Positions 37,001 to 64,000 of a stretch of DNA of 64,000 bases are shown one piece after another. The notes beneath the pieces were generated by a model, which ran no database searches, had not been told where the DNA came from, and saw nothing but the letters and a program-made list of their open reading frames with translations. The DNA lies in assembly GCA_000004985.1 (NCBI GenBank), contig GG738924.1, one strand, 5' to 3'. The stretch's first letter is position 1; the number at the start of each line of letters is the position of its first letter. This DNA is from Naegleria gruberi (Eukaryota). A program made the translations under genes and the position numbers.

Positions 37001-37984
37001 TCCACCTTCAAAGGAATTGACAAGCTCAGAGGAGAAACAAAGGACCATTTTTCAACCATGCTCGATCAAAGAGAATTTTCTCTCTCTGATCTCTCACAAA
37101 AAATGATGAATTTGGTAGAATTTCAAGTAGCCACTCCAAAGACACACGAGAGTGTCGCTGCTCAGGCATCTGCTGATTTGGGAAAGGAAATGAGCTTTAG
37201 CTCTTCTTCCAATAATTTGAAAGCCACATCAACTTCATCCTCTCAGGACACTTCTCTGCCGCAAGTTGTGACCTACTTTATCGATACCATTTGCTTGAAA
37301 GGTAAAAATCAACCTGTTCCAGTATTTGCAGTTCAATGTGATAGAAAATTAGCGACATCTGAACAAATTTACATTGAAAAAATGTTGGATCTGGTTCGTA
37401 GAGAGCTATTGGAAGAGAAACGATTGAAAGATGTCATTCATTTATTGCGGAGTTTGATGCTTTTCTTTGAGGAGAATCAATTGACCGATTCACCAGTATT
37501 TAGAGAACACAACACTGATCATTATGAGTTTAAATTTGGAGAGGAAATTCATACACCTATTTCTAGCATCAATGGAGAAAAGACCGAGGAGGAAATTTCT
37601 ACCAATGTTGAAGGAGATCCCTATCCAGTCATTTACAAGGCCATTTCGAAACTAAAGGAAAGATTGGAACTTACCTTAATGGAACACGAAGCCAAGAAGA
37701 GAAAAGTCCAAATCAACAAGAAACGTAGTTTACTAACAGCACTCTCTATTGATACTCGATCCAAATCTGATCCACTCATTCATCCAATACTTCCAATTAT
37801 TCCAGATTTTTCAACAACTTCACTTTTGGAAGAAAACAACAATATTGAAACTGTGGAGAACTCTGAATCAACACCAACCATGGCCAAATATGAATATTAT
37901 CGACAAATGGCCTTGATGGAAAATGAAAATAGAAGAAGCTCAATGAAATTGGACGATTTTGCTTTGGTATTGCATGAGAAATAA
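34051..37984 (+). CDS. Receptor-type class III adenylyl/guanylyl cyclase. Exon 1 is 34051..34946 and exon 2 is 35062..37984. The intron 34947..35061 is 115 nt (GTAAGT...AAAAG).
   Basis: The S/T/N-rich N-terminus ends in a TM helix (LLFIVIIHTLVCIIATSVILY) and is spliced in phase to an extracytoplasmic sensor-like domain of about 380 aa (Cache/CHASE-like). A second TM (LLVVLVVTVLIGTLAVLAL) follows. The cyclase homology domain is AEITIVFTDLANFT...IDKYIGDGCMALFNTP...ARVGVNTGSALIGNIGTHDRLNFTAVGDCVNVSSRLESLN...YGTKILIGEGS, followed by a C-terminal tail. Confidence 0.75.
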
Positions 37985-45277: not shown

Positions 45278-47164
45278 TTAATCTTGTAAGATTTTGTTGG
45301 CCTTTCTCCAATTTTCAACAATGATCCTCACTGATTTGTTACTAGATTTCAATCTTTCGAATAGATCGGTCATGTTATTGAGACATGCAACTCGAACAAT
45401 GTCAAATAATGTACTGGCTATGAGTGAATCATCATTCACACTCAGAATTTCATGTTCAATTCTCAGATAAATTTGGTCAATGTTGGCAATATTCAATTCT
45501 AATGGAGATCCTTCTTTCAGGTAGGTTTTCAATATTTTCATTGCCACCAGTTTCTTATTCTTTCGTTTGGGGGATTTTCTGAAATTTTCAATATCTCTAT
45601 ATGCTAAAACATCTTCATTACAATAACTCCTTGTCGCAAAATCCAATAACAATGCAAATGTCTTCCTATTTTTCAAAAATAATTCAAGTTCTGATTGAGC
45701 ATACTCAGCTTGATGATTATCATTACGAATGGCATAAATGACAGGAAGAATGACTGAAATAATTATTTCCAATAATGAATAGGTCAGTAGAGTAAATCCA
45801 AATGGAACGAAATAATCTGTCAAGAATCTGATAATCTCAATTTGTCCACTAATTATATAAGCAAGTGATAAAGCCACTTGAATAAATACCAAAACAAAAG
45901 CTTCAGTCTTAATTGACCAAGTATCTCTATCAACAAAGAAGAGAATGATCAAAAAGCTCACTTCTATCACAATGTAGAGTGCTGCTTCTGCTCCCAGCAA
46001 TATAACAGTATTTGAGGTTGTAACACATCCACTATTAAATGCAAATGGACTCACATTCCACAAGAATATTCTCTTTCCACTATTACTATACGAAAGTTCA
46101 TCAATTCCTCCCAATAAAGCCCAAATAGATAAGTGAATAATGAATGAAATTGTATAAGTGATTGCAATAAACTTGTAGCTCACCAAATATGAAAATATTT
46201 TGAACTTTTTGTCAGAGAAAATTGCAGAAGTGTTGTCAATGTCAGAAGAAGTGACCCACGTTTTTTGATCTTGTTCATCATGGACATCTTCTCCAGTTTC
46301 TGGAGTAACCCGTGTTGTTGTAATCTGTTCTGAAGTTTGTGATGCATCGTTTGGATTTTCTTGTGATATATTTGAAATGGTACTCGAGTTATCAAATGTT
46401 TTTGGTGTCAATAATTCTGGTTGACTTGTCTCTGATAATTCCGTAGAAGATCCATGTTGTATAGATGCTAATGGAAGAATGGTAATACCTTTCAATTTGT
46501 CATCCTCTTGAACTTGTTGATCCACATTTTGTTCCTTTTTCACATTGGTCAATTGTTGTGGTTTTTCACTTTTCGTCTGAAACATTTGTGCCTTCTTCTT
46601 ATTGAGTAAATACATGAAATAAATCCTCAAACATCGAAATACAGTTGGCAGACACAAACTAGGAATAATGATGAAAAACGAAAAAGTGTACAAGAAACAT
46701 GGAAATATTTTCCTCGAAATTGTAAATCGTAGACATGTAATGACCACAAAAGCCAAACTAGCTGATATTGTCAGTAGCATGTAAACTGGATTCCTAGCTT
46801 TGATGTGTCCACTCTTTCTCTTCCAAATAACTCCAACAGTTCCAAAAAGTGCCAACGTCAAATAGAGTGTCAAGAAGATGGATGCGATGATTGGTGTAAA
46901 GATGCTGTCTGGGCAAATATTATTTACCACTGTTGCATTGTATCCTTCACGACTCAAGTCTCCTAGATTGAACAATCTTTCGTCACATATTGAATAATTT
47001 GTTGTTGAGGTATTGTTGTTGGAAAGTTGTTGTTGTTGAATAGAATAAATTGTTGTTGCTATTGGATAACGATAATGAAAAGATTCTTGAATAAATGATG
47101 AAAGAAGGGTAAATATTCGAAATTGGGTTTCATTATTTTGACCTGCATGATGCAGCTGGTACAT
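45278..47164 (-). CDS. Seven-transmembrane receptor with a C-terminal RGS domain (7TM-RGS, AtRGS1-like architecture), copy A
   Basis: Seven hydrophobic helices with a long S/T-rich loop between TM3 and TM4. C-terminal RGS box KTFALLLDFATRSYCNEDVLAYRDIENFRK...LFDIVRVACLNNMTDLFERL. ATG start. Confidence 0.7.
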   Translation of the reverse strand: MYQLHHAGQNNETQFRIFTLLSSFIQESFHYRYPIATTIYSIQQQQLSNNNTSTTNYSICDERLFNLGDLSREGYNATVVNNICPDSIFTPIIASIFLTLYLTLALFGTVGVIWKRKSGHIKARNPVYMLLTISASLAFVVITCLRFTISRKIFPCFLYTFSFFIIIPSLCLPTVFRCLRIYFMYLLNKKKAQMFQTKSEKPQQLTNVKKEQNVDQQVQEDDKLKGITILPLASIQHGSSTELSETSQPELLTPKTFDNSSTISNISQENPNDASQTSEQITTTRVTPETGEDVHDEQDQKTWVTSSDIDNTSAIFSDKKFKIFSYLVSYKFIAITYTISFIIHLSIWALLGGIDELSYSNSGKRIFLWNVSPFAFNSGCVTTSNTVILLGAEAALYIVIEVSFLIILFFVDRDTWSIKTEAFVLVFIQVALSLAYIISGQIEIIRFLTDYFVPFGFTLLTYSLLEIIISVILPVIYAIRNDNHQAEYAQSELELFLKNRKTFALLLDFATRSYCNEDVLAYRDIENFRKSPKRKNKKLVAMKILKTYLKEGSPLELNIANIDQIYLRIEHEILSVNDDSLIASTLFDIVRVACLNNMTDLFERLKSSNKSVRIIVENWRKANKILQD

Positions 47165-49754: not shown

Positions 49755-51296
49755 ATGAGTAATAATAGCACATCACAACAGAAGAAACGAAAATTCGAAA
49801 CCAACCGATATATGGTTGTTTTTGAGGAGTTGCTGAGAGCTCCAGAAGCAAGAGAAAATTTCAGAGGTTTTCTCAAACTGGTTCATTGTGAGGAACCTCT
49901 TCAATTGATCGATGCCATTGATTCATACAGAACCGAACATAAAAAGCTAATAGATAATATTGATGACAGTGCTTCCGATTTTGATTTTCAAGGTTTTAAA
50001 AAGATACTACTCCTTGTGAATCAACTTGAAAATATTGTAAATACCTTTGGATTGGAAGATTCTATTGAAAAGTTTTCACATTATTATATGGGTGCTTGGA
50101 CTCGTACACTGAATCTCTACCATCTTGTAACACTAAAATTGGAATCCATTTCCAACTCTAACAAAACTAACAACAAGCAAATATTTGAAATTTTAGAAAT
50201 TTTAAATCCTTCCAATATTTTGGAAGATGTAGAGACAAAGGCAATTCTTGATTTGAAATATGATGAATTTCCAAGGTATGCCAGGTCGAATACGCTTCAC
50301 TTGTTTCTTGTACGAAAGGGTGAAGAATATACGAGAAGAATTGCTATTAATATTGCTAACGATTTTTATGTAGATATTAGATTTAAACCTAAAGATTTTG
50401 AATCTCAATTAATGACTGATAAGGATGTTTATTTTGCTTATACATTGAGTGAAGATACACCTGATTGGAAAGAATTAACTTGTAGCGAGAAACCTAACTT
50501 TTTACAGACCTTTGTTTCAAAAACAGTTTATTCAATAGGACCAGACGAAATGAAAGGAATGAGATTATTTAAATTGGTAATGCATCTGCCCTATGCAGTT
50601 GAAGATGTTTGGGCTACGTATTGTGATATGAATACACGATTCAAACTTGATCACACTCTCATGAAAGATTTCAAATTGCTGAGATATATTCCACCACATC
50701 AGAAGAAATCAAGTGAGCAACGAGATTCCATTTCATTTTATGAGATATTTGATGAGAGAGATAATCGATACACTGTGGATAAACCACCACTTGCCATTCA
50801 GATTGGAGCTCTGGGTATTGAAATGCACATTCCACTATTGAAACACAGAGACTTGCCACATACAATGACTTCACTTTATGATCCCTCGGTGAATTGTTAC
50901 ATGAACATTGGTCACACGTGCAAGATTGAGGAATCACTCAGGCGTGCACCTACAGATAGAGTCAAGTCTGAAATTTTGTTCAATTACATGTTCTTTGGTA
51001 CTGGAGAAAAATCAACAAGATTTATTCACACAGTGTATACAGACCTACATGTTCCTTTGGATTCTGATTTTGTTTTGAGTAAGATTTGGAAGAATAGAAG
51101 CAAACAATTACAGGCCTCATTTGAAGAATTACTAGCAGAAAAAACCAAGGGAGGAACCATTTCCATTGACAAATCTATGGTGAATGATCATTTCAAATAT
51201 TTTACAGCTGTGGAAGACAATGCCAAATTGAATAGAAAGTGGTACAGAGATTATTTGAGAAAGAAAAATCAAATGCAAATTGAATATGGTGATTGA
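49755..51296 (+). CDS. RGS-domain protein with a C-terminal START-like region (third paralog of the RGS-START family)
   Basis: RGS N-terminal half MVVFEELLRAPEARENFRGFLKLVHCEEPLQLIDAIDSY and C-terminal half DEFPRYARSNTLHLFL, with an insert between them. The C-terminal region of about 300 aa has START-like landmarks (RDSISFYEI..., ...FIHTVYTDLHVPL...). ATG...TGA. Confidence 0.5.
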   Translation: MSNNSTSQQKKRKFETNRYMVVFEELLRAPEARENFRGFLKLVHCEEPLQLIDAIDSYRTEHKKLIDNIDDSASDFDFQGFKKILLLVNQLENIVNTFGLEDSIEKFSHYYMGAWTRTLNLYHLVTLKLESISNSNKTNNKQIFEILEILNPSNILEDVETKAILDLKYDEFPRYARSNTLHLFLVRKGEEYTRRIAINIANDFYVDIRFKPKDFESQLMTDKDVYFAYTLSEDTPDWKELTCSEKPNFLQTFVSKTVYSIGPDEMKGMRLFKLVMHLPYAVEDVWATYCDMNTRFKLDHTLMKDFKLLRYIPPHQKKSSEQRDSISFYEIFDERDNRYTVDKPPLAIQIGALGIEMHIPLLKHRDLPHTMTSLYDPSVNCYMNIGHTCKIEESLRRAPTDRVKSEILFNYMFFGTGEKSTRFIHTVYTDLHVPLDSDFVLSKIWKNRSKQLQASFEELLAEKTKGGTISIDKSMVNDHFKYFTAVEDNAKLNRKWYRDYLRKKNQMQIEYGD

Positions 51297-52730: not shown

Positions 52731-53717
52731 TTTTTTTATTGTTGGAATTTTGTTTGGTTGTTGGTTGGCTTTTTATTCGAAAGTAATAGCACTCGATTTG
52801 GTTAATTTAAAAAGGAATACAATGACAGAAAGAGAATGATTGAGATAAATTTGGAGAGTTTAAATAAAAACGAGCAAATTTCATGTGTTTGAGATGAAAA
52901 GAATTGCAAATTCCAGAAGAAAATTACAAAAACACCAACATGTAATTCTAAAAATAAATTTCCAAATATTATACTGCCTTGCATGATGTTCGAAACAAAA
53001 ACTGTTGTGTGAAGGAAAACTTTAGCGAAATCAGATATTCAAGAGTTACGAAATGACCTTGGGTCATGAATTGCCAGTTTTCTTTTTCATGAAGTTCAAG
53101 TTTTGATCGCTCCCGAATATTTTAGAGTGTTATTGGCTTGTCAACATTTTGAACTTTACCCCTAAAAAAACCGAAATTCACCCTCAAAGTTGGGTGCAAC
53201 TTTGAGAAAGTTTTGTTAATAATTCAGGGCTCGAAAAAAACAAAAAGTTAAGGGTATTTATATTTTACACAGTAATTGGTATCTAGTTTTTAGACCGTAA
53301 AAAAAGTAAATTTATTAAATTTGAACAAGTCTAAAATCAACTTGTCATTATTTGAAATCATGTAACAAAGCAACAGCTAAAGATTGGCCATCCACTCAAA
53401 TAATCAAAGCTCAACTTGTTAATTACAGAAACATCAATATGACAATGTCATTAATCATCCACTCAAATTATAAATTGAAAGATCCAATTACATCCACTAA
53501 TTTTACCATGGCCATGTTGTTTCCACTTATCCAAATTCAGTGTATTTCCAATCAGATTATTAATTGCAAATAATTGTAGTAACAAAGAGAGAAAATTAAT
53601 TCCAAAATCCATCCCAAACCAGTTTTTGGATATAGGTGAATAAAAAATCGACAAAAAGCCAAATTGAACCAAAAAGCCAAAATCTAAAGCCAAAAATAAG
53701 TCAAGAAATTTCCACTA

Positions 53718-56700
53718 CTGTGGTTACGCAATGAAGTGCAAGCAATTCTACAATGAAATGCAAGCAATTATTTTTTGAACTGCAACGAATAATTTAATGA
53801 ATTGAAAGTTTCTTGAACCACAATTCTTAAAATAGATCAAAGAGAAGTCACACTGTAAGATCAAGCTGTAGTTCTGCTTGTTTCGAATATTGATAATGAA
53901 TTTGTTTATTATATAAGATATTTTGTATTGTTATTAAGATGATTGATCACTCTTCATGTTCATTGAATTTTCTTTCCGAAAATTGAATCCTCCCATGACT
54001 CATTAAATAATTCATCTAATTCTTCGTCATAATCGCCAAGCTCAATTTTAGAGCTCTTCTTGGGTTCAGATTGAAAACCTTCTGATTCCGAAAGTGGGCT
54101 TTGTGGTTCAAATTCTACTACATGTAAATGTTTCAATCTAGCAACAAGTATAGCTCTGTAATTTGAAATAGAAAATGGTTTGGTCATAATATCGACGGCA
54201 TCAGATAGTGAAAATCCTGCTGAAAGAAAATCCATTAGTAATACACAATAATCACCACAATGATTTCCATCCACTTGAATTTTTTTTTGTAATGTTTTTC
54301 GAACAGTCTTTGGTTTTACAATAAATGATGGCAACATTTCAAATAATTCACTAGTCTCTGATTCTATCACTGAAAAATCCTTAGCGAAAGAATCAAAAAG
54401 AAACCAATCAGTGGATTGACAATCATAGATTAGTAAGTACCAGTGTAATGATCTTGCCACAGGAAAAATTATAAATCCTTTTGATGTAAATTTCATACTC
54501 TTTGGTAAGTTTGTTTCTATGAATTTTTTGGATTGGTTAGTAACTCTTTGAGAGAAATCAGACGGTATGTATTGTAAATATTGTGAGCTGATTTTGGAAA
54601 AACAAATTCCAAATATATCAAAAGTATTTCCAGGTAAGAATACAGTGTCATCTTTGATAGTCTCCAATGCCTCAGTAGATAAAGTGATTGAACAAGCAAT
54701 TGTTTCTGTTGAAAGAACGTACAATTGTAGATTGGCAGCATTTTGTTGGATGTTATGGTTAAATTCTGTTTTGTTTTGTATGTGAAGTATTATTTTAGAT
54801 ATTTGTTCTACCTGTTTTTGGTCAAAATTTTCTTTCATGGAATCACTATCAATCCAAGGATTGTTTACATCATCTAAGATGGGATCTTGATCTAATTTCT
54901 CATCTGTCTCTACCTTAACTGATGGTGTAGGTAGTTCTACATAGAATTGACCAATACACATAGGATTAAATTCTCTGATATATAAATCATACAAATCATT
55001 ATTCATTTTCAGTGAAGCTCTGACATACTTCAAGTATTCCTCTTCTGAATCATAATTCCAAATATCCATTAAACATTTTCTAAAACTATTTACAATCACA
55101 TCTGGATTCATGTTAGAAATAATCTGCTCAAATGCTGCATTTCTTGATTTTCTATCAGAATTAGAATTATTCTTTTTCCAATCAGCTAATTCTCTTTTTG
55201 CATATCTGAAACACATATTATCCAATGGTGATTGATGGTGCCCACCTACAGGAAGTAAAATGTTAATTCTATTATGTTGTTTCAAAATCTTTTGAACTGA
55301 TTTACACTTATGATGAGAGAGATTATCCCATAATAAAATGTCTCCTTCTTTTGAATTAGGAATATAAACTTTTTCAACCCATTGCTCAATATGTTCAATA
55401 TGAACACCAGCAATTTTTTCCTCAACAGTTACCTTATTACCATTAATAGTTGATTTCTTTCCTGGCACTGACTCAACAATAGACACTGGTAATACACCTC
55501 CTTCTGCCGTTACAGCAACTAAAAAAGTATCCTTAATATCATCAGCCAATTGTAAAACAACTGCATCATCGTCCTTGATTGGAGTATTTGTTCTTTCCGT
55601 CGCCTTAGTATTTGTTCCAGTTTCATCAAAAACCACAATTTTACTTCTATCAATGGATTTTAAATTTCTAAACATTATTGCTGCATAGAAGCAATAATAA
55701 TAGTAGGTTCTATATAATTGCTCATAAGCTGTTTCAATTCTTTCTCTCTTGGTAATTGTTGTTTTGATCTTCCTTTTATAAAGAAACTTCTTGGAAAATT
55801 TGGAAATATAATCTACTGAAGGTGTTTTCTTTAATCCTGCAACTTCCTTCATTATTTCTCCAAGTCTTATATTACTAACTTGTTTTTTCTCACTCCGTTC
55901 CTTACGAGTAATATCAATAACCTGTAAAATTTGGTCTTTCAATAATAATGGAGGTGGGTGACCACGTTCAACCTTTAATGTTAGTTCATTCCTCTTGCAT
56001 GCCGATAAATATCTGCTAAATTGTGAAGGTGAGATATTATTTTGTTTAGCAAATTCCTGTTGTGATCCACGGTCGGGTGTTGAATATTGTTCTTTATACT
56101 TCTCAACAAGTTTAATTTGTTCTTCTCTTGTTTTTTGAACATAACCAACTTTTCTTTTGTTTTTAAACCCTATCAATACTATTTTATCATCAGGATTTTC
56201 CTTTTTTTCTGTCTCCTCCAGGTTTACCAGTTTTGCTTTCTTTGCTTGACTTTCATTGTATGTTTCTTGATTCCGTTCAACAATTAATAGGGCTTTTTTT
56301 TTGATGTTGTCTTCGAATGACTCATCTCTTTCATCCGTCTCTTCCTCAACAGAAGAACAAATTCTAGTTACCAATTTTGCTACCAGAGCATCTTTTCTAA
56401 GATTACCTCCTGTCTCTCCAAATTCACTCTTCAAAAACTCCTTCAAAAACTTGACATTTTTCATTGTCAATTGATCATGGATTGCCTCTTCCACATTCTC
56501 AAACTTTCGTTTTGTTCCTTTTTTTAGCTTCTTTGGTTTTTCTTCTTTTTTCTTGCCTGGTGTTTTTTCATCTTTCTTTTTAATGGGTGTGTTATCTGGT
56601 TGATCTTGTGTACAGGTCCATGAAGGAACTTGAGATACTGAAGGTAGCAAATCTATTAAATTGCTATAGCTGGAGAAGCTTTGTGGTGAAGTGTCATAGC

Positions 56701-56926
56701 TACTCGATTGCTTGTTTGACATTTTATAAATTTATTGCTTCTTCTGCTGATTGGAAGTTTTGATGTGTGTTTTGCAAGTTTCTTGATCAAAGTGGAAATT
56801 TATATTTAGACTTTCTTGCAGTTCGTCAGCAAGTAATTGTACTACATTGTAGAATTGCTTGCAGTTCAAAAAATAATTGCTTGCATTTCATTGTAGAATT
56901 GCTTGCACTTCATTGCGTAACCACAG
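53718..56926 (-). mobile_element. Intact pogo/Tigger-like (Tc1/mariner superfamily) DNA transposon, about 3.2 kb, with 69-72-bp terminal inverted repeats and TA target-site duplications
   Basis: Left end TA|CTGTGGTTACGCAATGAAGTGCAAGCAATTCTACAATGAAATGCAAGCAATTATTTTTTGAACTGCAA (53718..~53789). Its reverse complement is found at ~56855..56926, followed by TA. Subterminal copies of the cattgtagaattgcttgca motif lie inside the right end. The element encodes a single uninterrupted 920-aa transposase. End coordinates may be off by 1-2 nt. Confidence 0.85.
53960..56722 (-). CDS. pogo-type transposase (CENP-B/Tc5-like HTH + DDE_1 catalytic domain) fused to a C-terminal Ulp1/SENP-like C48 cysteine-protease domain
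   Basis: HTH: KLVEKYKEQYSTPDRGSQQEFAKQNNISPSQFSRYL. DDE_1: KIVVFDETGTNT...GDILLWDNLSHHKCKSV...INILLPVGGHHQSPLDNMCFRYAKREL. Ulp1-like C-terminus: SLHWYLLIYD...WFLFDSFAKD...QVDGNHCGDYCVLLMDF (His/Asp/Gln/Cys). By my reading of the displayed sequence the ATG falls at 56721..56723, one nt past the ORF-track end. Coordinates are taken from the ORF track. Confidence 0.8.
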   Translation of the reverse strand: MSNKQSSSYDTSPQSFSSYSNLIDLLPSVSQVPSWTCTQDQPDNTPIKKKDEKTPGKKKEEKPKKLKKGTKRKFENVEEAIHDQLTMKNVKFLKEFLKSEFGETGGNLRKDALVAKLVTRICSSVEEETDERDESFEDNIKKKALLIVERNQETYNESQAKKAKLVNLEETEKKENPDDKIVLIGFKNKRKVGYVQKTREEQIKLVEKYKEQYSTPDRGSQQEFAKQNNISPSQFSRYLSACKRNELTLKVERGHPPPLLLKDQILQVIDITRKERSEKKQVSNIRLGEIMKEVAGLKKTPSVDYISKFSKKFLYKRKIKTTITKRERIETAYEQLYRTYYYYCFYAAIMFRNLKSIDRSKIVVFDETGTNTKATERTNTPIKDDDAVVLQLADDIKDTFLVAVTAEGGVLPVSIVESVPGKKSTINGNKVTVEEKIAGVHIEHIEQWVEKVYIPNSKEGDILLWDNLSHHKCKSVQKILKQHNRINILLPVGGHHQSPLDNMCFRYAKRELADWKKNNSNSDRKSRNAAFEQIISNMNPDVIVNSFRKCLMDIWNYDSEEEYLKYVRASLKMNNDLYDLYIREFNPMCIGQFYVELPTPSVKVETDEKLDQDPILDDVNNPWIDSDSMKENFDQKQVEQISKIILHIQNKTEFNHNIQQNAANLQLYVLSTETIACSITLSTEALETIKDDTVFLPGNTFDIFGICFSKISSQYLQYIPSDFSQRVTNQSKKFIETNLPKSMKFTSKGFIIFPVARSLHWYLLIYDCQSTDWFLFDSFAKDFSVIESETSELFEMLPSFIVKPKTVRKTLQKKIQVDGNHCGDYCVLLMDFLSAGFSLSDAVDIMTKPFSISNYRAILVARLKHLHVVEFEPQSPLSESEGFQSEPKKSSKIELGDYDEELDELFNESWEDSIFGKKIQ

Positions 56927-56928
56927 TA

Positions 56929-58050
56929 AATTAAAATTGTAATATTTATTAACGTCTCTTGTATCGTAAAGACCTGAGAGACGAGGTCTACAACCAGTAA
57001 GTTTCGGTTCAGCGTTTAAGTGTTATGGGTTGACGCTAAGTGGTTGGTTAGACTGAGCCTGCCTGTGGTAGGCAGAGAGGTATTTCCTGTTAATAGTGAA
57101 GCTTGCATTGGGACGGTTGTACCACACTGAGTTCTTGTAGCAATTTTCCAAATAAATAGCTAGTGCTTTGTAGACTTCTAGGGCCACATTCTTAGGTATT
57201 CTTTTGCGCTTAGACCAGTTAAGCCAGTCATTACGGGAGCAACGACCATCAAATTCTATCCTAAGTTGAGAGGATTCTGAGATATCAGGAGGGAAACGAA
57301 TCTTGTTAAGGCTAAATTTCTGGGAGATAGCGTCCCATGTGGCATACAGTTCATCCTTTTCAGGATTGCATTTGGGACAAGTTTGGAATACGTGGGTCCA
57401 ATCTTCCTTGACATTACATTTGTCACAAATACTGTCGTTACCTAGTAAAATTGAGTGGTGGAGATTAAAGTAGAGGAGTCTTTGCTGATAATAAGACAAG
57501 AGAGAGTTTCTCCAGAAGGAGAGAGTGCTATTATGCCAATTATAGTCATTGTCTAATTGGCCCAACTTATTAATAATTTTCTTGGATCGCTGAGTTTCAA
57601 TGATAGCATTTCTAAGGTTGGAGACAGGCTTGTGATTGGTACGGTTACACAAGACCCATCCATTATCTGTGGATTTGAAGTAATATTTCAGATCTTTCAT
57701 TGTAGCGGCAGCATTTTTCCACAGTGAATCTGTAGTTTCACCCTTGAGCGCCTTATTTATCATGGCTCTTGCGATTTTTTGGGTGATAGGAGAGGTAGAA
57801 TTGACAAACCTACAGACAGATGCCATCCTTTCCACGTGACTTATATCAACTGGAGATGAAAGCCCAAGTCCACCCTGGGATTTATCACCATATATAACGG
57901 CTTTAGAGAGCCTGTTGTCACATCCAATTCTTTTCTTAATAATTCCACTAATTTTGACTTCCAATTTTTCCAATAGTGAAAGTGGAATAGCATCTACGCT
58001 TGAGAGGTATCTAGGTACAGAAAGCACCTTAGATAATATTACGTTCCTCA
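56929..58050 (-). mobile_element. 3' portion of a non-LTR (LINE-type) retrotransposon, 5'-truncated by the assembly gap
   Basis: ORF 57023..58027 encodes the C-terminal part of a LINE ORF2-like protein (YGDKSQGGLGLSSP... and a C-terminal Cys/His knuckle CDKCNVKEDWTHVFQTCPKC). An A/T-rich 3' tail with a short hairpin lies at 56929..57022. Local GC is higher than in the flanks. The ORF runs straight into the N-run. Confidence 0.55.
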
Positions 58051-60503
58051 NNNNNNNNNNNNNNNNNNNNNNNNNNNNNNNNNNNNNNNNNNNNNNNNNN
58101 NNNNNNNNNNNNNNNNNNNNNNNNNNNNNNNNNNNNNNNNNNNNNNNNNNNNNNNNNNNNNNNNNNNNNNNNNNNNNNNNNNNNNNNNNNNNNNNNNNNN
58201 NNNNNNNNNNNNNNNNNNNNNNNNNNNNNNNNNNNNNNNNNNNNNNNNNNNNNNNNNNNNNNNNNNNNNNNNNNNNNNNNNNNNNNNNNNNNNNNNNNNN
58301 NNNNNNNNNNNNNNNNNNNNNNNNNNNNNNNNNNNNNNNNNNNNNNNNNNNNNNNNNNNNNNNNNNNNNNNNNNNNNNNNNNNNNNNNNNNNNNNNNNNN
58401 NNNNNNNNNNNNNNNNNNNNNNNNNNNNNNNNNNNNNNNNNNNNNNNNNNNNNNNNNNNNNNNNNNNNNNNNNNNNNNNNNNNNNNNNNNNNNNNNNNNN
58501 NNNNNNNNNNNNNNNNNNNNNNNNNNNNNNNNNNNNNNNNNNNNNNNNNNNNNNNNNNNNNNNNNNNNNNNNNNNNNNNNNNNNNNNNNNNNNNNNNNNN
58601 NNNNNNNNNNNNNNNNNNNNNNNNNNNNNNNNNNNNNNNNNNNNNNNNNNNNNNNNNNNNNNNNNNNNNNNNNNNNNNNNNNNNNNNNNNNNNNNNNNNN
58701 NNNNNNNNNNNNNNNNNNNNNNNNNNNNNNNNNNNNNNNNNNNNNNNNNNNNNNNNNNNNNNNNNNNNNNNNNNNNNNNNNNNNNNNNNNNNNNNNNNNN
58801 NNNNNNNNNNNNNNNNNNNNNNNNNNNNNNNNNNNNNNNNNNNNNNNNNNNNNNNNNNNNNNNNNNNNNNNNNNNNNNNNNNNNNNNNNNNNNNNNNNNN
58901 NNNNNNNNNNNNNNNNNNNNNNNNNNNNNNNNNNNNNNNNNNNNNNNNNNNNNNNNNNNNNNNNNNNNNNNNNNNNNNNNNNNNNNNNNNNNNNNNNNNN
59001 NNNNNNNNNNNNNNNNNNNNNNNNNNNNNNNNNNNNNNNNNNNNNNNNNNNNNNNNNNNNNNNNNNNNNNNNNNNNNNNNNNNNNNNNNNNNNNNNNNNN
59101 NNNNNNNNNNNNNNNNNNNNNNNNNNNNNNNNNNNNNNNNNNNNNNNNNNNNNNNNNNNNNNNNNNNNNNNNNNNNNNNNNNNNNNNNNNNNNNNNNNNN
59201 NNNNNNNNNNNNNNNNNNNNNNNNNNNNNNNNNNNNNNNNNNNNNNNNNNNNNNNNNNNNNNNNNNNNNNNNNNNNNNNNNNNNNNNNNNNNNNNNNNNN
59301 NNNNNNNNNNNNNNNNNNNNNNNNNNNNNNNNNNNNNNNNNNNNNNNNNNNNNNNNNNNNNNNNNNNNNNNNNNNNNNNNNNNNNNNNNNNNNNNNNNNN
59401 NNNNNNNNNNNNNNNNNNNNNNNNNNNNNNNNNNNNNNNNNNNNNNNNNNNNNNNNNNNNNNNNNNNNNNNNNNNNNNNNNNNNNNNNNNNNNNNNNNNN
59501 NNNNNNNNNNNNNNNNNNNNNNNNNNNNNNNNNNNNNNNNNNNNNNNNNNNNNNNNNNNNNNNNNNNNNNNNNNNNNNNNNNNNNNNNNNNNNNNNNNNN
59601 NNNNNNNNNNNNNNNNNNNNNNNNNNNNNNNNNNNNNNNNNNNNNNNNNNNNNNNNNNNNNNNNNNNNNNNNNNNNNNNNNNNNNNNNNNNNNNNNNNNN
59701 NNNNNNNNNNNNNNNNNNNNNNNNNNNNNNNNNNNNNNNNNNNNNNNNNNNNNNNNNNNNNNNNNNNNNNNNNNNNNNNNNNNNNNNNNNNNNNNNNNNN
59801 NNNNNNNNNNNNNNNNNNNNNNNNNNNNNNNNNNNNNNNNNNNNNNNNNNNNNNNNNNNNNNNNNNNNNNNNNNNNNNNNNNNNNNNNNNNNNNNNNNNN
59901 NNNNNNNNNNNNNNNNNNNNNNNNNNNNNNNNNNNNNNNNNNNNNNNNNNNNNNNNNNNNNNNNNNNNNNNNNNNNNNNNNNNNNNNNNNNNNNNNNNNN
60001 NNNNNNNNNNNNNNNNNNNNNNNNNNNNNNNNNNNNNNNNNNNNNNNNNNNNNNNNNNNNNNNNNNNNNNNNNNNNNNNNNNNNNNNNNNNNNNNNNNNN
60101 NNNNNNNNNNNNNNNNNNNNNNNNNNNNNNNNNNNNNNNNNNNNNNNNNNNNNNNNNNNNNNNNNNNNNNNNNNNNNNNNNNNNNNNNNNNNNNNNNNNN
60201 NNNNNNNNNNNNNNNNNNNNNNNNNNNNNNNNNNNNNNNNNNNNNNNNNNNNNNNNNNNNNNNNNNNNNNNNNNNNNNNNNNNNNNNNNNNNNNNNNNNN
60301 NNNNNNNNNNNNNNNNNNNNNNNNNNNNNNNNNNNNNNNNNNNNNNNNNNNNNNNNNNNNNNNNNNNNNNNNNNNNNNNNNNNNNNNNNNNNNNNNNNNN
60401 NNNNNNNNNNNNNNNNNNNNNNNNNNNNNNNNNNNNNNNNNNNNNNNNNNNNNNNNNNNNNNNNNNNNNNNNNNNNNNNNNNNNNNNNNNNNNNNNNNNN
60501 NNN
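58051..60503. other. Assembly gap (2453 N)
   Basis: Run of n. ORF-track entries 57915..60527 and 58029..60566 are translations of N and are artefacts. Confidence 1.
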
Positions 60504-61395: not shown

Positions 61396-61856
61396 AGATT
61401 TGTAATTAAGTACTGTTGGAATTGACAAAATTAGAGTTAGTAAGGAAAAGCTTTGTAAAACTGAAATGAAGGTAGTTTATCAGATTGTCTTCCAGCCGTA
61501 GAACCTTACCATCTGAAATCCAATATTCCGAAATGATGAAAAACTGGTAATAAATATTTTGTTTATTATGTATTTGAATAGTAGTGATGAAAAGACATTT
61601 TCCAAGTTGGTGAAGTACATGTTGAAAATATACATGAACCTATCATCATGTAACCAATAGGAAAATCTGGTAGTGATGATGATTTTAATGAAAATACAAT
61701 ATTTATTGCTATTACAATGATGATAGTTGAATGGCGATAAATTTGGAGTCCTTCTGAGTTCCAAATTTCTTCCTTTGTGGTAACAATTAATCAAAACTCA
61801 AACAAAATACCTTTAATTCTCCTTCATCATCATCATTGCAAAATAATTCCACAATC

Positions 61857-63068
61857 ATGATGGATCAATTAAATATTGATATTCTCGGGTATGTGTTTGA
61901 ATTTCTTCCGAGAGGAACAGACAGGAAGAGAATTGCATTGGTCAACAAGACTTTTCACCATTCTAGATATTTGTTGGAGAAACGTGAAATGACTCGGATG
62001 TGGCATGATGAGAATAATTGTCTACAATATCACCCTCTCATGGAAGATGTGGTGAGTGAAGAAGAATTGGAGAAGAAACAAGAAGAATTACAAATTTCCA
62101 TACCTTTCCATTTGAAATTGTTTGTAACTGTCTTGACGAATGGTAGACAGCCATGGTCTAATACTGTTGTGCATGTTAGTAATTTGTTGGGACCTGTCGA
62201 ATCTTGGTTTTTGGACACACATAATGGTTTGGACACACAGAATGGTTATGCAATCTTGGGAGTTGATACTCAATTATCGAACATATTAACATTGAGTAGA
62301 GATGGGAGGATTAGAGTGAATGGAGACACGGTTGACTTTTTTGAGTTTGTTACGATGGTAAATCGTCCATTTAATCCAGAATTTTACAATTTTGAAAAGT
62401 TTAAAGAAAGAGTGTACTTCCCCTTCTCAATGACCAAGGAATATTATAGTACGTTGCCAGACAAGTACAAGTTTGTGGACAAGTTGACCATGCATGCTAT
62501 TGAATTGGATCCAAAATGTTATGCATATGTTCCTGATTATATCAAGATGATGAGACATATTGCCAAGAAGGTATTCATTAGAAATCCATCCTTGGGCACA
62601 TTAATTCCAAAAGAACTTTTGGAAGATACAGATTTTGTTATGGATGTTTACAAATCATCACAATCAATTCTGTTTTATGCTTCTCCAATAGGAAAATGGT
62701 GGAGTGATAGAGTTTTTATGATTGAGGCATTGAAGAGTGATGTATGTTTAATAAGAAACTGTTCTGAGGAAATACGGACTGATAGAGAAATTATTGACAT
62801 GATTATTGACATAGATGCAGCAAGTTCTTTTCAATATATTGGAAAATTCAAGGAAGATGAAGATATTGTGAAAAAGGCACTATTTAAATCAAACTTCACG
62901 ATTCTACATTATATCAATAGTGATTTTCTGCTTAATAATAGAGAACTAGTTCTCACAATATTGAAAAGTACGGAAAGTGTNNNNNNNNNNNNNNNNNNNN
63001 NNNNNNNNNNNNNNNNNNNNNNNNNNNNNNTAAAGTCAACCATTATCTTCCTACGGTACCATTTCTGA
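61857..63068 (+). CDS. Hypothetical protein with an F-box-like N-terminus, interrupted by a 50-N gap
   Basis: The ATG at 61857 gives MMDQLNIDILGYVFEFLPRGTDRKRIALVNKTFHHSRYLL (F-box-like), followed by about 350 aa of internally repetitive sequence. The ORF spans the N-run 62981..63030. Confidence 0.35.
   Translation: MMDQLNIDILGYVFEFLPRGTDRKRIALVNKTFHHSRYLLEKREMTRMWHDENNCLQYHPLMEDVVSEEELEKKQEELQISIPFHLKLFVTVLTNGRQPWSNTVVHVSNLLGPVESWFLDTHNGLDTQNGYAILGVDTQLSNILTLSRDGRIRVNGDTVDFFEFVTMVNRPFNPEFYNFEKFKERVYFPFSMTKEYYSTLPDKYKFVDKLTMHAIELDPKCYAYVPDYIKMMRHIAKKVFIRNPSLGTLIPKELLEDTDFVMDVYKSSQSILFYASPIGKWWSDRVFMIEALKSDVCLIRNCSEEIRTDREIIDMIIDIDAASSFQYIGKFKEDEDIVKKALFKSNFTILHYINSDFLLNNRELVLTILKSTESXXXXXXXXXXXXXXXXXXKSTIIFLRYHF
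62981..63030. other. Assembly gap (50 N, unknown size)
   Basis: Run of n. Confidence 1.
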
Positions 63069-63665: not shown

Positions 63666-64000
63666 GGGTTTGGGTTTGGGTTTGGGTTTGGGTTTGGGTT
63701 TGGGTTTGGGTTTGGGTTTGGGTTTGGGTTTGGGTTTGGGTTTGGGTTTGGGTTTGGGTTTGGGTTTGGGTTTGGGTTTGGGTTTGGGTTTGGGTTTGGG
63801 TTTGGGTTTGGGTTTGGGTTTGGGTTTGGGTTTGGGTTTGGGTTTGGGTTTGGGTTTGGGTTTGGGTTTGGGTTTGGGTTTGGGTTTGGGTTTGGGTTTG
63901 GGTTTGGGTTTGGGTTTGGGTTTGGGTTTGGGTTTGGGTTTGGGTTTGGGTTTGGGTTTGGGTTTGGGTTTGGGTTTGGGTTTGGGTTTGGGTTTGGGTT
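63666..64000 (+). repeat. Telomeric repeat array (GGGTTT)n, about 55 perfect units reaching the window end. Degenerate telomere-like units (ctagggtttg, aaggttgggtttag) precede it at 63614..63645.
   Basis: Perfect hexamer tandem array. The G-rich strand runs 5'->3' toward the end of the window, as expected for the right end of a chromosome. An AT-rich subtelomeric spacer (63070..63660) precedes it. Confidence 0.9.

What the first reader, a model, noticed from the sequence alone, without database searches (positions are those of the whole stretch)
53718..56926. Intact pogo-like transposon whose transposase carries a C-terminal Ulp1/SENP protease domain
The element has near-perfect 69-72-bp TIRs flanked by TA on both sides. 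A single 920-aa ORF combines CENP-B/Tc5 HTH motifs, a complete DDE_1 catalytic core (D...D...D within LLWDN / SPLDN context) and a C-terminal Ulp1-like domain with an intact His-Asp-Gln-Cys set (HWYLL, FDSF, QVDGNHCGDYC). Ulp1 domains are known passengers of MULE, CACTA and a few other DNA-transposon groups; I cannot recall one described for a pogo/Tigger-type transposase, so this may be a new transposase-protease fusion. The intact TIRs, TSDs and uninterrupted ORF suggest a young, possibly active element in a subtelomeric position.
Basis: partly seen in the sequence, partly recalled or inferred. Interest (0 to 1): 0.7.

Follow-up and report, generated by a model that had tools for sequence, protein, structure and literature searches.

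The report
Transposase fused to SUMO-type protease
This is an intact 3.2-kb cut-and-paste jumping gene near a chromosome end of the amoeba Naegleria gruberi; its Tc1/mariner/pogo-type transposase is fused in one reading frame to a Ulp1/SENP-like (SUMO/NEDD8-type) cysteine protease, a pairing known for other transposon groups but not found in the literature searched for this one.

Summary
Window 53718-56926 is a 3,209-bp element with perfect 68-bp terminal inverted repeats, TA on both sides and one 920-aa ORF on the minus strand.

The organism is Naegleria gruberi. The ORF is XP_002669668.1. A second 920-aa copy or allele, XP_002668708.1, differs at 4 residues.

- **Transposase (aa ~181-620):** the model has a full Tc1/mariner-type fold (AlphaFold pLDDT 85; Mos1 E=2.8e-9). 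The triad is D366/D466/D501, i.e. DD34D, with the third D in a pogo-style S-P-L-D motif.
- **Conservation:** the fusion is not an artefact. A 37%-identical metagenomic relative has the same junction in one ORF, and a deletion derivative keeps the same domain order.

"Pogo-like" is only partly supported. The ORF itself scores just below threshold for DDE_3, not DDE_1, and shows no Tc5/CENP-B HTH in Pfam. Its relatives hit DDE_1 and DDE_3 about equally.

Sister transposases carry a C-terminal USP deubiquitinase instead. This points to ubiquitin-like-modifier deconjugation as the selected accessory function.

I rate this a new variant of a known kind, of moderate interest.

The parts
53716..53717 (.). 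Left TA target-site duplication
   Evidence: Read directly from the sequence.
53718..53785 (+). Left terminal inverted repeat, 68 bp. It begins CTGTGGTTACGC.
   Evidence: 100% complementary to 56859-56926. (I1) reports 84 nt at 93%, with the TA included.
53730..53769 (+). Two 22-bp-spaced direct subrepeats inside the left TIR, AATGAA(G/A)TGCAAGCAATT. These are the presumed transposase-binding sites.
   Evidence: (D5). There were 7 matches at up to 3 mismatches against 0.48 expected, and 5 of the 7 lie in the two TIRs.
53960..56722 (-). Single 920-aa ORF, stop codon included. It is the N. gruberi predicted protein XP_002669668.1 / NAEGRDRAFT_75468.
56183..56722 (-). N-terminal region, aa 1-180. 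It is Lys-rich (KKKDEKTPGKKKEEKPKKLKKGTKRK), which looks like a nuclear localisation signal, and includes a block conserved with a second N. gruberi family member, XP_002668070.1.
   Evidence: One search gives the composition. One search gives 27% identity over aa 4-292, E=6e-17. There is no Pfam hit. The NLS and SAP-like readings are inference only.
55733..56155 (-). Bipartite helix-turn-helix DNA-binding region, aa ~190-330.
   Evidence: The AF2 model has two three-helix bundles. Foldseek aligns ~390-400 columns to full-length Mos1. The family profile hits the CENP-B DNA-binding domain 1hlv at E=2e-4. Pfam on this ORF gives only HTH_10 at E=0.063.
55013..55660 (-). DDD catalytic (RNase H-like) domain, aa ~355-570. 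Catalytic codons: D366 at 55625-55627, D466 at 55325-55327, D501 at 55220-55222. The spacing is DD34D.
   Evidence: Pfam DDE_3 at 27.6 bits against a cut-off of 28.6. pLDDT is above 90 through the core. The Mos1, SETMAR and Sleeping Beauty catalytic domains are matched at E=1e-5 to 1e-4. The D2 and D3 motifs are conserved across 50+ relatives.
54653..55012 (-). Poorly conserved linker, aa ~571-690.
   Evidence: 20% identity to P0002, against 53% for the DDE part and 36% for the C48 domain. pLDDT is low. It contains no Gly-Gly.
54128..54652 (-). Ulp1/SENP-like clan CE cysteine protease domain, aa ~691-865. Catalytic codons: H760 at 54443-54445, D777 at 54392-54394, Q816 at 54275-54277, C822 at 54257-54259.
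53963..54127 (-). Acidic C-terminal tail, aa 866-920.
   Evidence: 28% Asp plus Glu. Role unknown.
56853..56914 (-). Three 22-bp-spaced subrepeats in the right end. Two are exact copies and one has 3 mismatches.
   Evidence: (D1).
56859..56926 (-). Right terminal inverted repeat, 68 bp.
56927..56928 (.). Right TA target-site duplication

Best explanation
The element is an autonomous class II (cut-and-paste) transposon of the IS630-Tc1-mariner/pogo group in Naegleria gruberi.

Shown:
- Perfect 68-bp TIRs carry 22-bp-spaced subrepeats.
- The insertion is flanked by a TA duplication.
- One 920-aa protein holds, in order: a Lys-rich N-terminus, a bipartite HTH DNA-binding region, a DD34D RNase H-like catalytic domain, a variable linker, and a Ulp1/SENP-fold cysteine protease domain with His-Asp-Gln-Cys in place.
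- The fusion is conserved in diverged relatives.

Inferred mechanism:
- The HTH region binds the repeated AATGAA(G/A)TGCAAGCAATT sites in each end.
- The DDD domain excises the element and reinserts it at TA.
- The tethered protease acts in the nucleus as an isopeptidase that removes SUMO, or another ubiquitin-like modifier such as NEDD8, from the transposase itself or from host chromatin, repair or silencing proteins at the element. This would stabilise or activate the transposition machinery, or blunt SUMO-dependent silencing.

The deconjugation reading rests mainly on one finding: sister transposases of the same clade carry an unrelated deubiquitinase fold (USP/UCH) at the same C-terminal position.
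For: Element anatomy:
- TIR, TSD and ORF are confirmed.

Transposase:
- The AF2 model of aa 181-620 has pLDDT 85.3.
- Its best PDB matches are full-length Mos1 transpososomes (E=2.8e-9), then the SETMAR and Sleeping Beauty catalytic domains.
- The DDE motifs are conserved across 50 relatives.
- 44 of 51 relatives hit DDE_1 and 43 of 51 hit DDE_3.

Protease:
- Pfam C48 gives E=9.3e-4.
- H, D, Q and C align in register with SENP8.
- Foldseek's top 50 hits are all clan CE.

The fusion is ancestral, not an artefact:
- P0002 is 37% identical and spans the DDE end, the linker and C48 in one ORF.
- L002 is an internally deleted copy with the same order.
- The C48 domain is 36% conserved against 20% for the linker.
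- Two intact 920-aa copies differ at 4 residues.

Deconjugation as the function:
- The USP/UCH-fused relatives P0011, P0018 and P0037/P0080 (UCH 81.9 bits) form a separate clade in a rough NJ tree.
- Other transposon superfamilies carry Ulp1, OTU, VTD or C19 domains: Ginger1 and MULE (PMC2836005), Crypton (PMC3212892), and Helitron VTD, where the paper characterises VTD activities (PMC9741609).
- SUMO is required for heterochromatin maintenance and transposon repression in Drosophila (PMC10363806; bioRxiv 10.1101/533091).
Against: - No activity was measured, either for transposition or for proteolysis.
- On this ORF alone the Pfam C48 score (19.5) and the DDE_3 score (27.6) both fall just under their gathering cut-offs.
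- The C48 model has only moderate confidence: pLDDT 62.6 from a 3-sequence alignment.
- The triad Asp (D777) is replaced by Ser in the closest relatives, P0002 and P0004. Catalysis may therefore not be conserved family-wide.
- One USP-fused relative, P0018, has Ser in place of the catalytic Cys (my reading of the sequence).
- The substrate cannot be told from sequence. SENP8, a NEDD8 protease, is the best sequence match, while SENP5, SENP3 and Ulp1, which are SUMO proteases, are the best structural matches.
- Copy number is low, and the two copies may be alleles.
- SUMO-dependent transposon silencing has not been shown in Naegleria.
Confidence: 0.62

Rival explanations
1. The Ulp1-like domain is a maturation protease. 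It would cleave the 920-aa product itself, or another element protein, to release an active transposase, as adenain, poxvirus I7L and ASFV pS273R process viral polyproteins.
Confidence: 0.1
2. The C-terminal domain keeps the Ulp1 fold but works non-catalytically. It could be a SUMO/Ubl-binding or protein-interaction module that targets the transposase to modified chromatin, or it could be decaying.
For: The triad Asp is Ser in the nearest relatives P0002 and P0004. The domain is less conserved (36%) than the DDE part (53%). The Pfam score is below the gathering cut-off.
Against: In the window copy all four catalytic residues are present with canonical spacing: His to Asp 17 residues, Gln to Cys 6. 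His, Gln and Cys are invariant in all four aligned family members. P0021 keeps the F-D-S motif.
Confidence: 0.15
3. The locus is no longer mobile. It would be an immobilised or domesticated single-locus gene, with the two database proteins being alleles, that merely retains transposon ends.
For: Only two near-identical 920-aa proteins are annotated in the assembly, and one sits on a small 16-kb scaffold that could be a haplotig. No other TIR copy occurs in the 64-kb window. No empty site was found. An HTH+C48 ORF without a DDE domain and without detectable TIRs exists elsewhere (L001).
Against: Perfect 68-bp TIRs with intact TA duplications and intact catalytic triads are not expected to persist without recent mobility. 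An ENA metagenome fragment is at least 90% identical and carries small indels, which shows the element circulates in natural populations. Internally deleted derivatives typical of active DNA-transposon families exist.
Confidence: 0.1
4. The fusion is an assembly or annotation artefact, or a one-off capture of a host Ulp1 gene fragment.
For: The scaffold contains gaps nearby, at 58051-60503 and 62981-63030.
Against: There is no gap inside the element, and one ORF runs uninterrupted between the TIRs. The same DDE-linker-C48 junction occurs in an independent metagenomic relative at 37% identity, and in a deletion derivative. A second assembled copy has the same 920-aa length.
Confidence: 0.03

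Closest known systems
pogo superfamily transposons (Tigger, pogoR, Passer, Fot/Fot-like, Lemi, Mover; PMC7386202, PMC7325037)
   Same: Both have TIRs and a TA target duplication. Both have an all-Asp (DDD) triad with the third Asp in a P-L-D motif. The D2-D3 spacing of 34 falls within the pogo range. Most relatives of this ORF pass the Pfam DDE_1 threshold. The family DNA-binding profile best matches the pogo-derived CENP-B DBD, at E=2e-4.
   Different: This ORF has no DDE_1, CENP-B_N, HTH_Tnp_Tc5, HTH_psq or BrkDBD hit in Pfam. Its relatives hit DDE_3 as often as DDE_1. The TIRs are long (68 bp) with internal subrepeats. It carries a C-terminal Ulp1-like domain, and the word 'protease' does not occur in the main text of either pogo survey.
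mariner (DD34D; Mos1 and Hsmar1/SETMAR)
   Same: Both have a TA target duplication and DD34D spacing. Full-length Mos1 is the best solved-structure match, at E=2.8e-9.
   Different: The third Asp sits in S-P-L-D rather than the mariner S-P-D-L-x-P-x-D register (read from the sequence; the mariner motif is from established knowledge). Identity to Mos1 is only 12-14%. The protein is 920 aa, against about 345 aa for Mos1.
Ginger1 transposons of Hydra with C-terminal Ulp1 or OTU domains (PMC2836005)
   Same: Both are DDE transposases carrying an in-frame C-terminal Ulp1 (PF02902-type) domain. In both, sister elements carry a different deubiquitinase-type domain in its place: OTU there, USP here.
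   Different: The Ginger1 transposase is a Gypsy-integrase-like enzyme with a YPYY motif, an H2C2 zinc finger and a GPY/F motif. That is a different DDE superfamily from the one here.
Mutator-like elements with ULP1 domains (hydra, lancelet, Arabidopsis, maize, rice, melon; cited in PMC2836005) and Cryptons encoding C48 peptidases (PMC3212892)
   Same: A Ulp1/C48 domain is carried by a DNA transposon.
   Different: The transposition enzymes differ: a MULE transposase, or a tyrosine recombinase in Cryptons. In some CryptonS elements the C48 domain lies in an additional, separate protein rather than fused to the recombinase (PMC3212892).
Helitron/Helentron-encoded OTU and VTD deubiquitinases (PMC9741609); T. 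vaginalis transposase_11 + peptidase C19 protein (mentioned in PMC2836005)
   Same: All show the general theme of transposon-encoded ubiquitin or Ubl-deconjugating cysteine proteases. The paper characterises VTD deubiquitinase activities and selected Helitron VTDs for biochemical study (PMC9741609).
   Different: The protease folds differ (OTU, VTD, USP), and so do the transposition mechanisms.

Membership tests
IS630-Tc1-mariner (ITm) group of DNA transposons | Terminal inverted repeats with a TA target-site duplication | tested here: met
   The TIRs are 68 bp and perfect, with TA on both sides.
IS630-Tc1-mariner (ITm) group of DNA transposons | Transposase with an N-terminal bipartite HTH and an RNase H-like DD(E/D) catalytic domain | tested here: met
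   The AF2 model has pLDDT 85.3. Foldseek matches full-length Mos1 at E=2.8e-9, plus SETMAR and Sleeping Beauty. Pfam DDE_3 scores 27.6 bits, just under the 28.6 cut-off. D366, D466 and D501 are present.
pogo superfamily | Catalytic domain matches Pfam DDE_1 (PF03184) | tested here: inconclusive
   This ORF gives no DDE_1 hit even at E<=10. Of its relatives, 44 of 51 match DDE_1 (best 4.7e-19) and 43 of 51 match DDE_3. P0002, the closest relative, matches DDE_1 at 19.6 bits, below the cut-off of 22.
pogo superfamily | DDD triad with the third Asp in a (Q/S)-P-L-D motif | tested here: met
   D501 lies in HQSPLDNM. The motif SP[LC]DN is conserved in relatives. The pogo motif itself is from established knowledge.
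pogo superfamily | pogo-type DNA-binding motifs (CENP-B_N, HTH_Tnp_Tc5, HTH_psq, BrkDBD, HTH_ABP1_N; PMC7386202) | tested here: inconclusive
   None is detected in this ORF by Pfam. Only 1 of 51 relatives hits HTH_Tnp_Tc5, and more hit HTH_32, HTH_33 or HTH_23. The family profile's best PDB sequence hit is the CENP-B DBD, at E=2e-4.
pogo superfamily | Phylogenetic placement inside the pogo clade relative to Tc1/mariner, Gambol, Zator and IS630 | not tested
   No reference transposase set was available in the tools. Only an internal NJ tree of relatives was made.
mariner family (DD34D) | DD34D spacing | tested here: met
   34 residues lie between D466 and D501.
mariner family (DD34D) | Mariner signature around the third Asp (Y-S-P-D-L-A-P-S-D-Y/F) | tested here: not met
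   The sequence reads GGHHQSPLDNMCFRY. There is no acidic residue in the mariner register, at position +5 after the Asp-equivalent. The mariner motif is from established knowledge.
Peptidase C48 (Ulp1/SENP), clan CE | Pfam PF02902 match at or above the gathering score | tested here: inconclusive
   This ORF's C-terminus scores 19.5 bits against 20.7, E=9.3e-4. Relatives P0004 (21.4 bits) and P0021 (29.6 bits) pass. The family profile matches SENP8 at E=6.6e-7.
Peptidase C48 (Ulp1/SENP), clan CE | Catalytic His, Asp and Cys in that order, with an oxyanion Gln six residues before the Cys | tested here: met
   H760, D777 (His+17), Q816 and C822 (Gln+6) are present and align in register with SENP8. 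In relatives P0002 and P0004 the Asp is Ser.
Peptidase C48 (Ulp1/SENP), clan CE | Ulp1 fold | tested here: met
Peptidase C48 (Ulp1/SENP), clan CE | SUMO or NEDD8 endopeptidase/isopeptidase activity | not testable with these tools
   This needs biochemistry.

The most novel reading that the evidence does not exclude
A protist clade of Tc1/mariner-pogo-type (DD34D/DD35D) transposases has fused at least twice, independently, to ubiquitin-family deconjugating enzymes. The Naegleria lineage acquired a Ulp1/SENP-type protease, and a sister lineage acquired a USP deubiquitinase. If so, removing SUMO, NEDD8 or ubiquitin is a selected and previously undescribed accessory activity of even the simplest 'host-factor-independent' cut-and-paste transposons. 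It could act as an anti-silencing function or as a way of stabilising the transposase.
Probability: 0.4. Interest if true: 0.65.

Novelty: new variant of a known kind. Interest (0 to 1): 0.5.

Why it matters
**Context.**
- Ubiquitin- and SUMO-type proteases recur in unrelated transposon superfamilies: MULE, Ginger1, Crypton and Helitron.
- What they do for the element remains unresolved. The papers read here offer only hypotheses (PMC2836005, PMC9741609).

**Why this element is useful.** Tc1/mariner/pogo elements are the simplest and best-understood eukaryotic transposons. They use a single protein, solved transpososome structures exist, and (from established knowledge) Mos1 and Himar1 work in vitro and in heterologous hosts. 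A compact 3.2-kb member with an in-frame Ulp1-like domain has three further advantages:
- all catalytic residues are present;
- sister elements carry a USP domain in the same position;
- a point mutant (C822A) or a domain deletion can be compared with wild type in standard transposition assays.

That makes the question directly testable.

**Practical consequence.** Standard Pfam thresholds miss both domains in this ORF. Such fusions are therefore probably under-annotated in protist genomes.

Tried and rejected
1. **Pfam on the whole ORF.** It found only a sub-threshold DDE_3 hit. Rescanning the C-terminal 320 aa alone recovered C48 at E=9.3e-4.
2. **The search for homologous proteins, three searches.**
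   - The whole ORF returned only the N. gruberi protein.
   - A 10-sequence alignment also returned only that protein. I suspect the word index was swamped by the Lys/Glu-rich N-terminus, but did not check this.
   - The C48 alignment returned only P0004 and P0021.
   - Consequence: P0002 and P0003, the best relatives on a 3,840-bp metagenome contig, could not be fetched as DNA. Their TIRs and TSD remain unchecked.
3. **The look-up of encoding contigs.** It had neither N. gruberi copy on record. I therefore could not decide whether the two copies are alleles or separate insertions.
4. **Collection scans.** The metagenome contig scan with the DDE-C48 alignment returned only an unrelated bacterial IS630 element, L003. 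The viral contig scan with the C48 alignment found nothing.
5. **afdb50 fold library.** It was unavailable, so the DDE model could not be compared with annotated Tigger- or pogo-derived proteins.
6. **SAP-like reading of aa 85-120.** It is not supported. There is no Pfam hit and no BLASTP similarity to the SAP domain of relative P0041.
7. **Self-processing at Gly-Gly.** I rejected this because the linker has no GG.
I first recorded the spacing as DD35D. The spacing is DD34D, with D2 at residue 466.
9. **Neighbouring ORF 57023-58027.** I suspected a retroelement remnant, but it gave no Pfam hit.


Full report
**1. Observation**

- The two ends are perfect reverse complements over 68 bp (53718-53785 and 56859-56926). 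Similarity continues to about 84 nt at 93%.
- Each end is flanked by TA, at 53716-53717 and 56927-56928.
- The terminal 30-mer and 16-mer occur only at these two sites in the 64-kb window, with essentially zero matches expected by chance.
- Inside each TIR there are 22-bp-spaced direct subrepeats, AATGAA(G/A)TGCAAGCAATT. The left end has two exact copies. The right end has two exact copies and one degenerate copy.
- A single 920-aa ORF occupies 53960-56722 on the minus strand. Only short ORFs of 66-74 aa overlap it within the element.
- The element is 3,209 bp long.

The window is eukaryotic.
- GC content is about 34%.
- There are two N gaps, at 58051-60503 and 62981-63030.
- The window ends in (GGGTTT)55 from 63666. 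'Subtelomeric' is therefore correct: the element ends about 6.7 kb from the repeat, counting the sized gap.

**2. Organism and copies**

- The ORF is exactly the Naegleria gruberi predicted protein XP_002669668.1 / EFC36924.1 (NAEGRDRAFT_75468), on a 196,593-bp scaffold.
- A second 920-aa protein is XP_002668708.1 (NAEGRDRAFT_54650), on a 16,246-bp scaffold. It differs at 4 residues (I47S, H82R, H656Y, K864Q), none of them catalytic.
- A 177-aa ENA metagenome fragment belongs to the same 90%-identity cluster and carries small indels.
- I could not obtain the DNA of the second copy. Whether it is an allele or a second insertion remains open.

**3. The transposase part**

Pfam on this ORF:
- The whole ORF gives only DDE_3 (PF13358), at 23.5 bits. 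On the isolated segment it reaches 27.6 bits against a cut-off of 28.6.
- DDE_1, HTH_Tnp_Tc5 and CENP-B_N do not appear even at E<=10.

Relatives and structure:
- An exhaustive phmmer search of 1.84 billion representatives found 68 relatives.
- With 50 of them as an alignment, AlphaFold gives a confident model of aa 181-620 (mean pLDDT 85.3).
- Its best solved-structure matches are full-length Mos1 mariner transpososomes (E=2.8e-9, about 400 aligned columns, so the N-terminal HTH pair is included). The SETMAR, Mos1 and Sleeping Beauty catalytic domains follow.

Catalytic residues:
- D366 lies in VVFDETG, D466 in LLWDNL and D501 in SPLDN.
- 34 residues separate D2 from D3. This element is therefore DD34D, as are P0002, P0007 and P0010. 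Most other relatives are DD35D.
- The third Asp lies in an S-P-L-D motif. From established knowledge, this is the pogo register (Q-P-L-D), not the Tc1/mariner register (S-P-D-L-x-P-x-D/E).

Family-level signals:
- Of 51 family members, 44 match DDE_1 (best 4.7e-19) and 43 match DDE_3 (best 2.4e-13). HTH hits are mostly the generic HTH_32, HTH_33 and HTH_23. Only one member hits HTH_Tnp_Tc5.
- A family profile searched against PDB sequences puts the pogo-derived CENP-B DNA-binding domain first (E=2e-4). SETMAR and Mos1 follow closely.

Conclusion: the element belongs securely to the IS630-Tc1-mariner/pogo group. It has pogo-like features, but membership of the pogo superfamily as defined in PMC7386202 (DDE_1 plus CENP-B, Tc5, psq or Brk DNA-binding motifs) is not demonstrated for this ORF. 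That needs a reference-rooted phylogeny.

**4. The protease part**

Sequence evidence:
- The C-terminal 320 aa alone hit Pfam Peptidase_C48 at E=9.3e-4, 19.5 bits against a cut-off of 20.7, over aa 733-845.
- phmmer against PDB sequences gives SENP8 and ChlaDub2 as weak hits, with His, Asp, Gln and Cys in register.
- A four-member family profile raises SENP8/DEN1 to E=6.6e-7 over 152 positions. XopD reaches 9.8e-5, and ChlaDUBs and SENP7 follow.
- Relatives P0004 (21.4 bits) and P0021 (29.6 bits) pass the Pfam cut-off.

Structural evidence:
- The AlphaFold model of aa 640-880 comes from a 3-sequence alignment. Mean pLDDT is 62.6, pTM is 0.67, and the core blocks are mostly 55-82.
- In the model, His760 sits at the start of a beta strand, Asp777 at the end of the next strand, and Cys822 at the N-terminus of a helix.
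- Foldseek against the PDB returns only clan CE enzymes in the top 50: SENP5, Ulp1, SENP2, SENP8, SENP1, SENP7, poxvirus I7L, SseL and SnCE1. The best E-value is 1.4e-6.

Spacing:
- His760 to Asp777 is 17 residues and Gln816 to Cys822 is 6. From established knowledge, this matches yeast Ulp1.

The domain is therefore a genuine Ulp1/SENP-type fold with a complete catalytic set.

**5. Is the fusion real and conserved?**

Yes.
- P0002 (461 aa, metagenome, 37% identity) aligns to aa 450-848. It runs from the second catalytic Asp through the linker and the whole C48 domain in one ORF. Its own Pfam hits, both below cut-off, are DDE_1 and C48.
- P0003 aligns to aa 191-442 at 41% identity.
- L002, a 1,636-bp ENA contig, carries aa 314-472 followed directly by aa 681-870. 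It is an internally deleted copy with the same domain order.
- L001, a 6,529-bp Logan contig, has a 377-aa ORF with the HTH region fused to C48, without a DDE domain and without detectable TIRs.
- Between the window ORF and P0002, identity is 53% in the DDE part, 20% in the linker and 36% in the C48 domain. The protease is therefore constrained as a domain.
- His, Gln and Cys are invariant in the four aligned members. The triad Asp is Ser in P0002 and P0004. This is a caveat for family-wide catalysis.

**6. Sister fusions**

- Three relatives of the same transposase group carry a C-terminal USP/UCH domain (PF00443) instead: P0011 (973 aa), P0018 (769 aa) and P0037/P0080 (1,053 aa; UCH 81.9 bits).
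- By my reading of the sequences, the Cys and His boxes are present in P0011 and P0080. P0018 has Ser at the Cys position.
- In a rough NJ tree of the DDE core, the three cluster together and apart from the window lineage (no support values).
- One relative has a SAP domain.
- One relative is annotated in Anaeramoeba flamelloides as a DDE-1 domain protein.

**7. Mechanism**

Shown: the anatomy of a cut-and-paste element, and the two folds.

Inferred:
- The bipartite HTH binds the repeated 18-nt motif in each end.
- The DDD domain performs excision and TA-targeted integration, as in Mos1.
- The Lys-rich N-terminus directs nuclear import.
- The tethered Ulp1-like domain removes SUMO, NEDD8 or a related modifier from the transposase or from nearby host proteins.

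Reasons to prefer deconjugation over polyprotein processing:
- Cellular Ulp/SENP enzymes are the closest matches.
- The linker has no Gly-Gly site.
- An unrelated deubiquitinase fold occupies the same position in sister transposases.

Precedents:
- Ginger1 transposases have C-terminal Ulp1 or OTU domains. MULEs have Ulp1 domains. A T. vaginalis transposase carries a C19 peptidase domain (PMC2836005).
- Cryptons encode C48 peptidases (PMC3212892).
- Helitrons carry OTU and VTD domains. The paper characterises VTD deubiquitinase activities and selected Helitron VTDs for biochemical study (PMC9741609).
- SUMO is required for heterochromatin maintenance and transposon repression in Drosophila (PMC10363806; bioRxiv 10.1101/533091). 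An anti-silencing role is therefore plausible, but it is untested in Naegleria.

**8. Novelty**

- Full-text searches combining Ulp1 or C48 with pogo, mariner, transposase or Naegleria returned only the Ginger1 and Crypton papers and irrelevant hits.
- The main text of the two large pogo and Tc1/mariner surveys contains neither 'protease' nor 'Naegleria'.
- Repbase and Dfam could not be checked.
- Both N. gruberi proteins are annotated only as 'predicted protein' or 'uncharacterized protein'.
- I therefore rate it a new variant of a known kind. The transposase type is known and the accessory domain type is known, but the combination was not found described.

**9. Verdict**

- The finding is real, and its core interpretation, a transposase-Ulp1 fusion in an intact TA-flanked TIR element, is correct.
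- The 'pogo' label is provisional, and activity is untested.
- Interest is moderate (0.5). Transposon specialists already know that Ulp1, OTU and USP domains travel with transposons. However, an in-frame fusion in the simplest and most tractable transposon group, with a USP-bearing sister lineage, makes the long-standing question of what these proteases do for transposons experimentally accessible.

Noticed in passing
window 63666-64000: A pure (GGGTTT)n array of at least 55 units runs to the window end, preceded by degenerate copies from about 63620. It is presumably the N. gruberi telomere repeat (TTTGGG/CCCAAA). I did not check whether this repeat unit has been reported for Naegleria.
   Followed up: no
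P0011, P0018, P0037/P0080 (metagenome proteins): Transposases of the same DD35D group carry a C-terminal USP/UCH deubiquitinase domain (PF00443, up to 81.9 bits) in place of the Ulp1-like domain. They cluster together in a rough NJ tree. P0018 has Ser at the catalytic Cys position.
   Followed up: partly
L001 2713-3846 (Logan SRR25266747 contig): A 377-aa ORF (P0021) joins the family's HTH region directly to a C48 domain that passes the Pfam cut-off (29.6 bits). It has no DDE domain and no flanking inverted repeats. It could be a deletion derivative or a domesticated HTH-protease gene.
   Followed up: partly
P0027 = XP_002668070.1 (N. gruberi, partial, 1,637-bp contig); also P0035 and P0005: N. 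gruberi has a second, divergent family with the same N-terminal and HTH architecture (27% identity over aa 4-292, E=6e-17). A related chimeric fragment, P0035, ends in a remnant of the C48 His motif (YWHLLIFE).
   Followed up: partly
window 57023-58027 (-), running into the gap at 58051: A 334-aa ORF lies immediately right of the element. It has Cys/His-rich motifs (CDKCNVKEDWTHVFQTCPKC) and is truncated by the scaffold gap. It gave no Pfam hit at E<=0.01. It may be the C-terminus of a retroelement ORF, but this is unverified.
   Followed up: partly
window 14216-16090 (+) and 34994-37984 (+): One ORF has a BLUF blue-light sensor domain (87.9 bits). A separate ORF has an adenylate/guanylate cyclase domain (58.8 bits).
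   Followed up: no
window 27270-30572 (-), 45278-47164 (-), 49755-51296 (+): Three large ORFs with RGS-domain matches lie in the same subtelomeric 25 kb. This is possibly a paralogous gene cluster.
   Followed up: no
window 61836-62981 (+): An ORF with DUF4116 repeats (62.3 bits) is the last gene before the telomere. It is interrupted by a 50-N gap.
   Followed up: no
window 53960-56722 (-) versus Pfam thresholds: Both domains of this ORF fall just below their Pfam gathering scores (DDE_3 at 27.6 against 28.6; C48 at 19.5 against 20.7). On the full-length protein the C48 match is not reported at all. Routine annotation therefore labels the protein only as 'predicted protein'.
   Followed up: yes
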